Positions 3,379-11,763 of a DNA stretch of 64,000 nucleotides are shown here, one piece after another. The notes below the pieces were generated by a model that was not told where the DNA came from, searched no databases, and saw nothing but the letters and a program-made list of their open reading frames with translations. Origin of the DNA: an uncultured bacterium (GTDB lineage: Bacteria; AUK180); assembly GCA_937863565.1 (NCBI GenBank), contig CALMGJ010000037.1, forward strand, positions 1 to 64,000, written 5' to 3'. The position numbers were made by a program, and so were the translations under genes. The first letter of the stretch is position 1. Every line of letters begins with the position of its first letter.

Positions 3379-6300
3379 ATGAAAACAAGGACAAATGTCG
3401 AAAATTTTAAAAATGTGATATTCGGCGATTTCGCCGAAAAGCTTCCCATCGAGAACCTGCTCGAGAACCAATTCAGATATTTCAACGATTATTTCAAGAT
3501 CTCCCGTGATTCCCGGCTTTCAAAAATCGAGATAGATGAAAATTCACCGGTAGGCCAATTGTACGAAGTATCCCTGCATAAGACACTCCAGGAGCTTTTT
3601 CCCTTCACTTCCGTGAAAGGCAATGTGATGTTGGAGTACATAGGGTATTCACTCGGCAGGCCCATCTATACAGAGGAAGAATGCTGCGATAAGAAACTTA
3701 CGTATTCGCGCCCGCTCAGGCTTAAGATGAGGCTTACCATTCTGGAAAGGGACGAGGTCACAGCGGAGATGAAACCGGTTCAGGCCAAAGAGGAAGAAGT
3801 ATTCTTCATGAACTTCCCCATGATAACCCAGAGAGGGACATTCATAATCAACGGGGCAGAAAGGATCATCGTAAGCCAGTTGCATCGCTCACCCGGAGTT
3901 ACTTTTTCCGAACAGGAAGGTGTACTTGATATAAACGGACAGAAACTGTTCACAGCGACTATAATCCCGTATTACGGTTCCTGGCTTGAATTCACGATGG
4001 ATACGGTCCGCATCCTCTATGTTCTTCTCGACAGAAAGAAAAAGGTACCCGGCACCCTTCTTCTCAAGGCGATGAACATGACGAATACGGATATCCTTCG
4101 CAGTTTTTATAAAACGAAAAAGATCAAAGTAAAGGATATCAAGAAATCAGCCGGAATACCCCTTGTGGTGGTCGAGGACATCATCACGTCCCAGGGAGAG
4201 GTCATACTCGGCGCCGGTGACGATCTGAACGAAGTTACAGTACATTTCCCCGAGGATGTAAAGGAGATAGAGATCGTCGATCCTGATAAGATCACACAGA
4301 CCACGATCATAGACACCCTTAAAAAAGACCCGACCAAGAACGCTGTGGAAGCTCGGAAAACGATATACAATAAACTCCGCGCAGGCTACTCATATTCACA
4401 GCAGATGGCGGACAGCTTCTTCGAGATGCTCTACTACAACCCGGAGAAATATTCTTTTTCATATGTGGGAAGATACCAGATCAATAAAAGGCTGAAGCAG
4501 GAAAAGGAAGTTCCGGCCGAAACTCTCGTACTGACGCAGCACGATGTCATCAATACGGTAAAGGAACTCCTTGACCTCAGGGAAAGCCTGGATATTGCCG
4601 ATGATATCGACAACCTTTCCAACAGAAGAGTGAGAATGGTGCACGAGCAGCTTGATGTCGTTTTAAGAAGCTCGGTGCTCAAGCAGGGCAAGAATATTGT
4701 TGAGAAGCTGGGCAGCAATGACGCCGAATCGATGGGCATCATAGATATTTTCCACACGCGGAATATCGAAACCAGCCTGAACGATTTCTTCGCAAGAAGC
4801 CAGCTTTCCCAATTCATGGACGAGATCAACCCCCTTGCCACGATGACGCATCAAAGAAGGCTTTCAGCGCTTGGCCCCGGCGGTCTTAACAGGAAAAGGG
4901 CGGGTTTCAAGGTCAGAGACATCCATCCCACCCACTTTGGACGTATCTGCCCGATCGAGACGCCTGAAGGCCCGAACATAGGACTTATCAGCCACCTTTC
5001 AAGCTATGCACGCATCAATGAGAAAGGCTTCATCGAAACGCCTTATGCGCGCGTGATAAAAAGAAGGATGACGGATGAGATCGCGTTCATGTCTGCGGAC
5101 GAATCGGAAAAATATGTGATCGCTTCCGCGGATGTTACTATAGACGACGAGAACCGGATCGCGGATGAGTATGTATACTGCCACCTCAAATATGATGTAG
5201 GGTTCAAGAAAGCAGACGAGGTAGAATACATAGACGTTTCTCCGAAACAGATGGTCTCCATATCCTCTTCTCTCATCCCCTTCCTCGAGCATGATGACGC
5301 GAACAGGGCCCTGATGGGAGTTAACATGCAGCGCCAGGCAGTCCCGCTATTGTTCCCCGAAGAGCCGATAGTGCAGTCCGGCATGGAAGAGATCGTTGCC
5401 AGAGATTCCAATTCGGCCATCATATCAGAATATGACGGCACCGTGGAATTCGTCGATGCGACCAATATAAGCATAAAACTCTCAAGACCCAAAAAGGGAA
5501 TAGAGACGTTTGATTACAGGCTTCAGAAGTTCAGAAGAAGCAATCAGGACACGACAAAGAACCAGACGCCTATAGTGAAGATGGGCCAGAAGGTAAAAAG
5601 GGGCGAGCCCCTGACAAACGGCATGGGGATCTCCCACGGCAAATTGTCTCTGGGCAAGAACCTGAAAGTAGCATTCATGCCTTGGCAGGGATATAATTTC
5701 GAAGATGCTATCATCATTTCAGACAGACTTGTGCGCGAAGACGTGCTCACGTCCGTTCACATCATCAAGGCGCAGGTCGATGCAAGGATAACGAAACTCG
5801 GAAGGGAAGAGATCACGAGCGATATTCCGAACGTGGACCCCGTGAAACTCAGATATCTTGACGAGAACGGCATTATCCGCGTAGGGACAAAGGTCTCTCC
5901 CGGCGACGTGCTCGTAGGCAAGATAACTCCTCAGGGAGAAACGGAGCTGTCCGGAGAGGATAAGCTTCTCCAGATCATTTTCGGCAAGAAAGCGTCTAAT
6001 GTGAAGAACACTTCTTTGTACGCGGACGAGAAGACATTCGGTGTGGTCACCGAAGTCAGGGTTTTCTCGCGTAAGAAAGACGAAGAGGACGATAAGACGA
6101 AGGCAGAAGTGAAATGGAAATTGAAAGAGCTCGATAACGTTATTACAACTGAACGCTATACGCTTGAAGAAGAATATCATGCGGCGTTGTTCTCCAAGAT
6201 CAAGAACAAAGAACTTCCCGCGAGTGTCAAGCTCAAGAACGAAACGATAAAGGCCAAGACAAGGGTCACGGCCGAAGTGTTCGAAAAACTCGTTGAGGGC

Positions 6301-9300: not shown

Positions 9301-11763
9301 ACAGATGACACGCTCACGCTGTTCAACCCCATCTATATAATGATCGATTCGGGCGCAAGGGGTTCCCAGGTCCAGATCAAGCAGCTTGCCTCGCTCCGCG
9401 GCCTTATGGAAAATCCGTCCGGAGAGATCATTGAGACCCCGATCAAGTCCAATTTCAAGGAAGGCCTTAAGGTATTGGAGTTCTTCATTTCAGCTCACGG
9501 CGCGCGCAAGGGTCTTGCCGATACCGCTCTTAAAACATCGGAATCCGGCTACCTCACAAGAAGGCTTGTTGATGTGGCGCATGATTCGATCGTGAAAGAA
9601 TACGACTGCGGGACAACTCTGGGGATAGAGATCAGCGCTTTGAACAAAGCTCCCTATATCAAAGAATCCCTGGCCGAGAGGATATACGGCAGGATCGCTT
9701 TTGAGGACGTGATATCCCCGAAGGGCGAGAAGATCATCGGGCAGAACGAGATGTTCACGAAAGAGATCGGCGAGAAGATAGAGAACCTCGGCATCACCTC
9801 CGTAAAAGTGCGCTCCCCGCTCACATGTCAGACATACAAGGGCATTTGTCAGCTCTGCTACGGTATGGACCTTTCAACGAAGAATATTGTCGAGCTTGGA
9901 ACTCCCACGGGCATCATTGCAGCGCAGTCGATCGGCGAACCGGGCACGCAGCTTACGATGAGGACCTTCCACATAGGCGGCGTTACATCAAAGAAATCCG
10001 AGGCGGAGACCATTTATGCGGAATTGCTTCTTCTGAAAAAGGGCGAGACATATAAAAAATTCGAGATCGAGAAGAAACTCCTGGATGCAAATTTCGTTTC
10101 GGTGAAAAAGGTCCAGAACGCCTACGAATACAAGTTCGATAAATTCGAGCTCGTGGTTCAGACCCCGAACATTAAAAACAAGATCATCACGGTCCATTTC
10201 AGCGAACAGGGCACGATCACGAATATCTCAGACAATTCCGGCAAGAAATACGCCGAGGTCTCCCTGATCCAGGGCAAGCTTAAATACCGCCTGCAGTACA
10301 ACAAGGAACCCAACTCGGAAGGAAAAAAACTCAATCTGTCCAGAGACGGCGAACTTGTCATCCTTTCCGATATCAAGGATGAAGTCACCGTTGACGAGCA
10401 TGGCAACAATATCATTTATAAAACGGCAGCGGATGATATTTACGAGCTCGGAAAGAAAAAGGAACTTATCTGTCCCGAGGGGCATATTATCGACAGCGAA
10501 AGGAACGTACGCATATTGACGAATAATATCTCCAAAGTAAAGATCTACAGGGAACTCGAAAGATATTCCACGCCTTACGGCTCGGAACTTCTTGTACCGA
10601 ACTACACGCTGCTTACCGAGAAAACACCGATCGCGATCAAACCGATGTATTTTGAACCGATCATTTCTGAAGCAACGGGCAAAGTGGAGTTCCACAATAT
10701 CGATTTCTCGCCGGAAACGAAAACACCGAACGACAAGATCGTCATCCAGCCGGCGGTAGTCAGCATCAGCGGAAGAACGCAGCCTAAGATCATGGTCGGA
10801 GGTAAAGAACATTCGATCGAAGTATCGAGGATCGTAAAAGGTGTGGGTAAGGGCGAGAAAGAGGTCCATACCACGCATATTAACGTAAATCAAGGCGATA
10901 AAGTGCTCCGCGGCGACTTCATGGGAAAGATAGTCATAAAAAAGAGTGAAAAGACGGACATCACCGGCGGTCTTATGAAGGTCGAGGAACTTTTCGAAGC
11001 AAGGCACAGGAAATCGGCTGATAATGCGGTCCTCTCCGAGATCACGGGTACGGTCGAAACATATCAGGACAAATCAAGAAAGATCAGGGGAACCTATCCT
11101 ACCTATGTGCGCGTTCTCGAACCGACCGGAGGCAAAAAGGAATACAAGATCAACTTCACGCAGCAGATCATCGTGAAGGACGGGGACAGAGTAGAGCAGG
11201 GCGAAGCCCTTACCACAGGCATCACCAACCTGTTCGACCTTCTGAGGATCAAGGGCGCGGACTTCGTGAGGAAGTACATCGTTGATGAAGTGAAATCGAT
11301 CTATAAACTTCAAGGGATCAGCATTCACGACAAACACATCGAGATCATTGTCAATAAAATGCTCTCAAAAGTCCGCATCACAAAGATAGGTGATTCCAAT
11401 TTCCTGCCCGATCAAATAATCGACAAATCCGAATTCCAAAAGGAAATGCAGCGGATCAGCGAAACGAAGGGTATCAAGCCTGAGAGTGAACAGACCCTGC
11501 TCGGTATAAGCAAGGTAGCCCTGCAAACGGATTCATGGCTTTCTGCCGCTTCCTTCCAGGAAACGATAAATGTACTTTCCGTTGCGGCCTTGGAAGGGAA
11601 AAAGGATGTCATCGAAGGACTCAAGGAGAATATCATTATCGGCAATCTTATACCCGCCGGCACCGGGTTCTATACGGCTACGGATAAAGTTGGCGAGAAT
11701 CTTGCCGATCTGAGAAGGCTCGTAGAGCACTTCGCGTTTAAAGACTCGAAAGAGATGGCGTAA
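3379..11763 (+). CDS. rpoBC: Fused DNA-directed RNA polymerase beta-beta' (2794 aa)
   Basis: Beta motifs ([44 protein letters not shown]) run in frame into beta' motifs ([10 protein letters not shown], Zn ribbon, [35 protein letters not shown]). Confidence 0.97.

What the first reader, a model, noticed from the sequence alone, without database searches (positions are those of the whole stretch)
3379..11763. Natural rpoB-rpoC fusion with a minimal linker, possibly of independent origin
Seen: one 2794-codon ORF. The beta C-terminal motif [18 protein letters not shown] (~7117-7170) joins via ~13 residues ([13 protein letters not shown]) to the beta' N-terminal region SIQLKLAS...GEVK...TINY, with no stop, spacer remnant or in-frame ATG at the junction. 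Loss of both termini argues against a single-base sequencing artefact. Known: fused beta-beta' is described in Helicobacter/Wolinella and Wolbachia. Inference: composition and gene content do not resemble those groups, so this may be a separate fusion event in an uncharacterised lineage.
Basis: partly seen in the sequence, partly recalled or inferred. Interest (0 to 1): 0.8.

Follow-up and report, generated by a model that had tools for sequence, protein, structure and literature searches.

The report
Natural fused rpoB-rpoC polymerase gene
The two large subunits of this uncultured bacterium's RNA polymerase are encoded as one 2794-residue protein; the fusion is real and shared by its small phylum, but it is a new example of an oddity already known from Helicobacter and Wolbachia.

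Summary
Observation confirmed. One ATG-to-stop ORF (3379-11763, +, 2794 aa) carries all beta domains, a 15-residue linker (7171-7215) and all beta' domains. It holds the genome's only rpoB and rpoC matches.

It is not an artefact. The junction is assembled in 6 of the 9 genomes of this phylum-level lineage, and all 6 are fused. Their linker DNA has diverged, with many synonymous codon changes and only whole-codon indels.

Stop-free fusions occur in at least 14 of 395 other sampled genomes (11 families). They occur in all 46 junction-bearing genomes of an Omnitrophica-labelled phylum, and in all 120 listed hits of a 2170-hit protein search. This scan had already noted 44 such fusions on other DNA.

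The gene fails the curated Helicobacteraceae and Wolbachia fused-gene models, so it is separate from those. Whether it arose independently of the other uncultured fused lineages is unresolved. RpoBC trees need 10-12 state changes overall, but AU tests reject no placement of this phylum.

Verdict: a new member of a known kind, of modest interest.

The parts
3287..3314 (+). Terminator-like hairpin with a T-tract between rplL and the fused gene; possible attenuator
   Evidence: 11-pair stem, 7 G-C pairs, followed by a T-rich tail. This is a consensus scan only. The analogy to the E. coli attenuator upstream of rpoB comes from the passage read.
3367..3372 (+). Shine-Dalgarno-like GGGGAG, 6 nt upstream of the ATG
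   Evidence: Read directly.
3379..7170 (+). Beta (RpoB) module, residues 1-1264
   Evidence: TIGR02013 matches residues 15-1264 at 1469.5 bits (cut-off 801.15). Pfam Rpb2 domains 1, 2, 3, 45, 6 and 7 are all found. The conserved motif [13 protein letters not shown] lies at residues 1198-1210.
7171..7215 (+). 15-residue Lys/Asp-rich linker (residues 1265-1279) that replaces the beta C-tail, the stop, the spacer and the beta' N-tail
   Evidence: In 5 phylum genomes it varies only by whole codons and has many synonymous changes.
7216..11763 (+). Beta' (RpoC) module, residues 1280-2794, plus the stop codon
   Evidence: TIGR02386 matches residues 1280-2766 at 1398.6 bits (cut-off 963.5). Pfam Rpb1 domains 1-5 are all found. 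The Cys-rich zinc motif lies at residues 1336-1358 and NADFDGD at 1733-1739.
7258..7281 (+). Family-specific insertion of about 6 residues in the beta' N-terminus, just before the conserved GEVK
   Evidence: alignment: present in the 4 genomes of family f1 and absent from family f2 (G007). It is also absent from the other fused proteins printed.
9985..10956 (+). Insertion of about 324 residues between the two trigger-loop helices of beta' (residues 2203-2526)
   Evidence: Flanking motifs are located. Sub-blocks 2217-2297 and 2332-2391 are shared by both families of the phylum but by 0 and 1, respectively, of 17 other fused proteins.
11795..11823 (+). Terminator-like hairpin 32 nt after the stop codon
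   Evidence: 13-pair stem, 11 G-C pairs, T-rich tail. Consensus scan only.

Best explanation
This is a genuine, inherited rpoB-rpoC gene fusion, fixed across a small uncultured phylum-level lineage. Translation from one ribosome-binding site yields a single 316-kDa beta-linker-beta' polypeptide. The last conserved helix of beta is tied to the first conserved strand of beta' by about 15 residues. The polymerase core would then be alpha2(beta::beta')omega. Both halves keep their catalytic and zinc motifs, so the enzyme should work like an ordinary bacterial RNA polymerase. The tether enforces 1:1 synthesis and assembly of the two large subunits in cis.

Shown here: the ORF, its domain content, that it is the genome's only match to each subunit model, and its conservation in relatives. 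Inferred: that the polypeptide stays uncleaved, and that the tether helps stoichiometry and assembly.

The fusion event is separate from the Helicobacteraceae and Wolbachia fusions. Its relation to the many other fused lineages among uncultured bacteria is unresolved.
For: ORF and translation.

Domains: all Rpb2 domains followed by all Rpb1 domains. The rpoB and rpoC equivalog models are both over cut-off within the one protein.

Copy number: one match to each model in the 95.5%-complete genome.

Conservation: in the phylum, 6 of 9 genomes have the junction and 6 of 6 are stop-free. The other three lack the region. G005 has no rpoB or rpoC match. G006 matches only residues 2385-2792, and G008 only residues 19-451.

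Selection on the frame: the junction codon alignment shows 16-17 synonymous-only codon differences against 16-17 amino-acid changes between G000 and G004 or G002. All indels are 2, 3 or 6 whole codons.

Shortened tails: anchor distance is 47-54 codons, against at least 58 in 137 unfused loci.

Gene unit: canonical secE-nusG-rplKAJL context, a Shine-Dalgarno-like site before the ATG and a terminator-like hairpin after the stop.

Motifs: catalytic motifs are intact.

Literature: a passage read says bacterial rpoB and rpoC are 'occasionally fused' and that a functional synthetic fusion has been reported.

Not the classical families: NF007172 and NF011417 are far below cut-off, while G208 and G054 pass NF007172. 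In the tree, G208 groups with unfused G160 (100/94).
Against: No reads could be laid on the junction, and there are no RNA or protein data, so expression as one uncleaved chain is inferred.

G007's frame is cut by a contig end (2414 aa; its C-terminal piece lies on another contig). Three phylum genomes give no information.

Even the Helicobacteraceae-type row held together with this phylum is not formally rejected by the AU test (lnL 22.7 lower, p 0.20). Independence from that family therefore rests on the curated model cut-offs, and on the taxonomy that places the two only in the same domain. It does not rest on the tree.

The functional benefit of the tether is untested.
Confidence: 0.88

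Rival explanations
1. The fusion is not an event of this phylum's own. It was inherited from an older ancestor shared with another fused lineage: the Omnitrophica-labelled phylum of G143, and perhaps the single-genome phylum of G085. The fusion would then be a shared rare genomic change.
For: All 46 junction-bearing genomes of 51 in G143's phylum are fused. Their anchor distance is 47, the same as in this phylum's family f2. Trees that hold this phylum together with that clade score higher than the free trees: lnL +4.5, p-AU 0.56 on 951 columns, and +10.45, p-AU 0.67 on 2531 columns. G085 (fused) is the weak sister (90/66).
Against: The control that holds this phylum with an unfused pair fits as well or better: lnL -2.9, p 0.45, and +30.1, p 0.80. 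The free searches were therefore stuck in local optima and the data do not choose between placements. In the full-length tree G085 moves to the G143 clade and this phylum stands alone. No large insertion is shared with those lineages. Linker sequences are not alike beyond the conserved flanks. Both stems are long and amino-acid composition is skewed, which favours false attraction.
Confidence: 0.3
2. The single ORF is a sequencing or assembly artefact: a lost stop codon, a frameshift or a chimeric join.
For: No reads could be examined. This is a metagenome-type assembly of 38 contigs.
Against: Five other genomes of the phylum have the same stop-free junction with different nucleotide sequences and whole-codon indels. 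Both tails are shortened relative to every unfused locus examined.
Confidence: 0.01
3. The gene is fused, but the cell still makes separate subunits, either by proteolytic cleavage in the linker or by internal initiation of beta'.
For: The linker is Lys/Asp-rich and poorly conserved in sequence, so it is probably exposed.
Against: The linker has no in-frame ATG. The next ATG, at 7246, would remove the first conserved beta' strand. The in-frame GTG at 7168 is not conserved; it is GTT, GTC, GTT and ATT in the relatives. The linker has shrunk below any unfused spacing, which is not expected if a start site were kept.
Confidence: 0.08

Closest known systems
Helicobacteraceae (Helicobacter, Wolinella) fused RpoBC, NCBIfam NF007172 / PRK09603, 2890 positions
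   Same: One ORF in the order beta then beta', and the only polymerase large-subunit gene in the genome. Passages read describe this fusion in Helicobacteraceae.
   Different: This protein scores 2249.5 bits against a cut-off of 5372, whereas G208 and G054 score 5737 and 5680. Their anchor distance is 60-62, against 54 here. They are related to this genome only at the level of domain. In the tree, G208 groups with unfused G160 and G013.
Wolbachia-type fused RpoBC, NCBIfam NF011417 / PRK14844
   Same: A single beta-beta' polypeptide. The passage read names Wolbachia as fused.
   Different: This protein scores 2039.5 bits against a cut-off of 4632. No Wolbachia sequence was compared directly.
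Fused RpoBC of an Omnitrophica-labelled phylum (the phylum of G143; proteins P0042, P0081, P0100, P0119)
   Same: The fusion is fixed phylum-wide, in 46 of 46 junction-bearing genomes. The tether is near-minimal, with an anchor distance of 47, as in this phylum's family f2. A sister relation is not rejected.
   Different: Identity across the junction is only about 56%. Those proteins are 2500-2650 aa and lack this phylum's 81-aa and 60-aa beta' insertion blocks. The sister relation is not supported against an unfused control.
Engineered E. coli rpoB-rpoC fusion
   Same: [quoted passage not shown]
   Different: It is artificial. The original paper was not read, so its linker cannot be compared.

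Membership tests
Bacterial RNA polymerase beta subunit (TIGR02013 rpoB) | Score over the curated cut-off along the full model | tested here: met
   1469.5 bits against 801.15; residues 15-1264 match model positions 8-1236 of 1238.
Bacterial RNA polymerase beta' subunit (TIGR02386 rpoC) | Score over the curated cut-off along the full model, with the catalytic NADFDGD and the N-terminal zinc motif | tested here: met
   1398.6 bits against 963.5; residues 1280-2766 match model positions 2-1144 of 1147. Motifs lie at residues 1733-1739 and 1336-1358.
Natural beta-beta' fusion (general kind) | One stop-free frame running from the beta C-terminus into the beta' N-terminus | tested here: met
Natural beta-beta' fusion (general kind) | No separate rpoB or rpoC elsewhere in the genome | tested here: met
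   One match to each model in G000, which is 95.51% complete. An unassembled second copy cannot be fully excluded.
Natural beta-beta' fusion (general kind) | Inherited: the fusion is present in related genomes | tested here: met
   6 of 6 phylum genomes with the junction assembled are fused.
Natural beta-beta' fusion (general kind) | Made and kept as one polypeptide in the cell | not testable with these tools
   No sequencing run was listed, and there are no proteomic data.
Helicobacteraceae RpoBC (NF007172) | Score over the curated cut-off of 5372 bits | tested here: not met
   2249.5 bits, split into 4 stretches. Positive controls G208 and G054 pass. G007, G143, G085 and 14 named control genomes do not.
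Wolbachia-type RpoBC (NF011417) | Score over the curated cut-off of 4632 bits | tested here: not met
   2039.5 bits.

The most novel reading that the evidence does not exclude
The fusion arose on its own in the ancestor of this phylum. It would then be one of ten or more independent beta-beta' tethering events in bacteria, which repeatedly shrink the junction to the same near-minimal length (44-48 residues between the conserved anchors, against at least 58 codons in unfused genes). That convergence would point to a structural optimum for the tether and a recurring selective advantage of obligate 1:1 cis-assembly of the polymerase, mostly in uncultured lineages.
Probability: 0.45. Interest if true: 0.5.

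Novelty: new member of a known kind. Interest (0 to 1): 0.3.

Why it matters
For this lineage, the fused gene is a clean rare genomic marker. It also affects annotation: the gene should be named rpoBC and not flagged as a frameshift.

More broadly, the survey made here shows that tethered beta-beta' polymerases are much more common than the papers I could search state. Those papers name Helicobacteraceae and Wolbachia only. Here I found at least 14 of 395 sampled genomes in 11 families, one whole phylum with 46 of 46, and 2170 hits of fused length in the protein search, of which all 120 listed are fused.

Fused junctions are also shorter than any unfused one. That makes the old question of why the two subunits are ever fused testable across many independent lineages. 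No fused chain appeared among the best 60 matches in the Protein Data Bank copy.

Tried and rejected
Read support: the look-up of sequencing runs on 6800-7600 listed no run, DNA or RNA (none was listed).

Site-heterogeneous (PMSF) tree of 69 rows: not finished after two 300-s calls. I fell back to LG+G4.

Tree searches. The quick tree was 58 lnL units worse than the careful tree. Both careful trees were beaten by constrained searches. Sister-group statements from the free trees, including this phylum + G085 at 90/66, are therefore not relied on.

The 'open_frame_aa' column of the genome search reads through stops outside the matched stretch. G028 showed a long open frame yet has a stop in the spacer. 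G035's locus, fetched for the same reason, is not among the fused loci.

My first classifier wrongly called L135 (G309) fused. One search shows a stop there, and the anchor-based classifier replaced it.

I considered whether the purine-rich stretch and the ATC codon in the linker are a relic ribosome-binding site and start codon. I rejected this because the Ile aligns with the conserved Phe/Ile at the start of beta' in the relatives.

Papers not held: PMC93870 and PMC2813377. What they say is known to me only through citations.

Literature searches for a wider distribution of the fusion returned nothing beyond Helicobacteraceae and Wolbachia (search listings, plus the passages read). Subscription journals are mostly not held in this library.

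Structure prediction of the junction was considered and dropped, because the tool returns no coordinates from which to measure the tether.
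Full report
THE OBSERVATION

One search lists a single ORF at 3379..11763 on the + strand, 2794 codons, starting with ATG. One search translates it without an internal stop.

Pfam finds every Rpb2 (beta) domain in order, then every Rpb1 (beta') domain. NCBIfam places the rpoB equivalog on residues 15-1264 (1469.5 bits, cut-off 801.15). It places the rpoC equivalog on residues 1280-2766 (1398.6 bits, cut-off 963.5).

The 15 residues that belong to neither model lie at 7171-7215. 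They contain no stop and no in-frame ATG.

The catalytic NADFDGD, the N-terminal Cys-rich zinc motif and the conserved beta motifs are intact. The product would weigh 316 kDa.

Whole-genome searches find one match to each subunit model, both in this ORF. The assembly has 2.27 Mb in 38 contigs and is 95.5% complete.

The gene sits in the usual secE-nusG-rplK-rplA-rplJ-rplL context. A terminator-like hairpin lies between rplL and the gene. A GGGGAG site lies 6 nt before the ATG. A strong terminator-like hairpin follows the stop.

IS IT REAL?

No sequencing run was listed for the junction, so I used relatives instead.

The genome's phylum in the held collection has 9 species genomes, one class and two families. 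Six of them have the junction, and all six cross it in one stop-free frame. The frames are 2794, 2804, 2804, 2799 and 2800 aa. G007's is 2414 aa because a contig end cuts it; its C-terminal piece lies on another contig.

The other three genomes say nothing. G005 has no rpoB or rpoC match at all. G006 matches only residues 2385-2792, and G008 only residues 19-451.

A codon alignment of the junction from five genomes shows heavy nucleotide divergence. G000 against G004 has 19 identical codons, 17 synonymous-only changes and 16 amino-acid changes. Every length difference is 2, 3 or 6 whole codons. The frame has therefore been kept open by selection across the phylum, and an assembly or base-calling artefact is excluded for practical purposes.

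HOW SHORT IS THE LINKER?

I measured the distance between two conserved anchors: F of the beta PESF motif and E of the beta' GEV motif. I did this in 165 loci.

In this phylum the distance is 52-54 codons in family f1 and 47 in family f2. Family f1 carries a 6-residue insertion of its own just before GEV, so its net value is 46-48.

All 137 unfused loci have at least 58 codons: 104 are in frame (58-136 codons) and 33 are in another frame (175-440 nt). This sample was chosen partly by match score and contains some re-fetched duplicates.

Both subunit tails have therefore been trimmed. But the top 120 fused proteins from the protein search range from 44 to 94 with a mode at 47 (27 of 120). This linker is near the minimum, not exceptional.

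HOW COMMON ARE SUCH FUSIONS?

The papers I could read name Helicobacteraceae and Wolbachia (passage in PMC7483510; passage in PMC1557499). One says rpoB and rpoC are 'occasionally fused' and that a functional synthetic fusion exists (passage in 10.1101/2021.11.05.467461). Five full-text searches found nothing wider.

The databases say otherwise.
- A search restricted to proteins of 1536-4890 aa gave 2170 hits at E <= 0.001. All 120 listed hits carry both anchors in one chain. Source labels include Omnitrophica, Elusimicrobia, Caldiserica, NPL-UPA2 and Magnetobacterium, and JGI names some 'subunit beta-beta''.
- In a sample of 401 genomes at least 90% complete (395 outside this phylum), 12 have a single stop-free match across the junction. 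I then fetched 23 two-match candidates that were in frame, and 2 more of these (G108, G376) proved fused. The total is at least 14 genomes in 11 families. This is a lower bound, because 588 matches were not listed.
- Named records add a Liptonbacteria locus and a Puniceicoccales locus. The Puniceicoccales locus sits next to unfused Puniceicoccales and Opitutales rows in the trees.
- In the phylum of G143, whose relatives are labelled Omnitrophica, 46 of 51 genomes have the junction and all 46 are stop-free.
- G208 and G054 pass the Helicobacteraceae model NF007172. G007, G143 and G085 do not.
- This scan had already recorded 44 notes on rpoB-rpoC fusions in at least 43 other genomes.

ORIGIN

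The protein fails both curated fused-gene models. The genome shares only the domain with the Helicobacteraceae-type genomes. That fusion is described as arising in a common ancestor of Helicobacter and Wolinella. The event here is therefore separate from the classical cases.

For the other fused lineages I built trees with the linker region trimmed out by column filling.
- FastTree on 129 rows.
- IQ-TREE LG+G4 on 69 rows by 951 columns.
- IQ-TREE LG+G4 on 46 full-length rows by 2531 columns.

This phylum is always one clade (100/100). The fused state needs at least 12 changes and at least 10, so fusion (or splitting) has happened many times.

Where this phylum attaches is not resolved. It is weakly sister to fused G085 (90/66) and stands alone.

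AU tests reject nothing:
- With the fused G143-phylum clade: lnL +4.5, p 0.56; +10.45, p 0.67 on full length.
- With the Helicobacteraceae-type row: lnL -22.7, p 0.20.
- With an unfused control pair: lnL -2.9, p 0.45; +30.1, p 0.80 on full length.

The constrained searches beat the free ones, so the free searches were stuck in local optima. The stems are long and amino-acid composition is skewed. A mixture-model run did not finish.

No large insertion is shared with the G143 clade or G085. Two beta' blocks are specific to this phylum: residues 2217-2297, and 2332-2391, which one other protein (P0110) also shows.

I therefore put an origin within this phylum's own stem at roughly even odds. A shared older event with the Omnitrophica-labelled phylum gets about 0.3.

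MECHANISM

Shown: one translation unit, intact active-site and zinc motifs, no second copy found, and a short, variable, charged linker.

Inferred: the core enzyme is alpha2(beta::beta')omega. The tether guarantees equal amounts and cis-assembly of the two large subunits. Engineered tethering is reported to be functional.

None of the best 60 Protein Data Bank matches is a fused chain, so no solved structure of a natural tether was found.

Cleavage or internal initiation cannot be excluded without protein data. No conserved start site exists in or near the linker.

VERDICT

It is a new lineage for a known kind of fusion, in a phenomenon that is much more widespread than the searchable literature says. 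Independence from Helicobacteraceae and Wolbachia is well supported. Independence from other uncultured fused phyla is open.

Noticed in passing
window 3287-3314: Terminator-like hairpin with a T-tract between rplL and the fused gene, followed by a weak promoter-like site at 3329-3358. It resembles the attenuator that E. coli has upstream of rpoB.
   Followed up: partly
window 9985-10956 (residues 2203-2526): Very large insertion (about 324 aa) between the two trigger-loop helices of beta'. Its blocks 2217-2297 and 2332-2391 are shared by both families of the phylum. None of 17 other fused proteins has the first block, and only P0110 has the second.
   Followed up: partly
window 7258-7281: Six-residue insertion in the otherwise very conserved beta' N-terminus, just before GEVK. 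It is present in the four genomes of family f1 and absent from family f2.
   Followed up: partly
G143 phylum; loci L114, L129: A whole phylum of 5 families, whose relatives are labelled Omnitrophica or Elusimicrobia, has fused rpoBC in 46 of 46 genomes that have the junction. The anchor distance is a uniform 44-48.
   Followed up: partly
L009 (G023), L103 (G316), L104 (G323) and others: Many unfused genomes have rpoB and rpoC in the same frame, separated by a short spacer with a single stop codon. They are one substitution away from a read-through fusion, which may explain why fusions recur.
   Followed up: no
P0112: A fused-length (2984 aa) beta-beta' protein comes from a eukaryotic proteome set (eukprot, jgi/Galph1). 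It is a long branch in the tree. Whether it is organellar or a contaminant was not examined.
   Followed up: no
window 11872-15385: rpsL-rpsG-fusA do not follow the polymerase gene. Instead there is a family-2 glycosyltransferase, a CreD-like membrane protein, and a 518-aa protein with no Pfam match (13829-15385).
   Followed up: no
G085 (L122, P0009): A 1.4-Mb genome that is the only member of its phylum in the collection also has a fused rpoBC, 2744 aa, anchor distance 54.
   Followed up: partly
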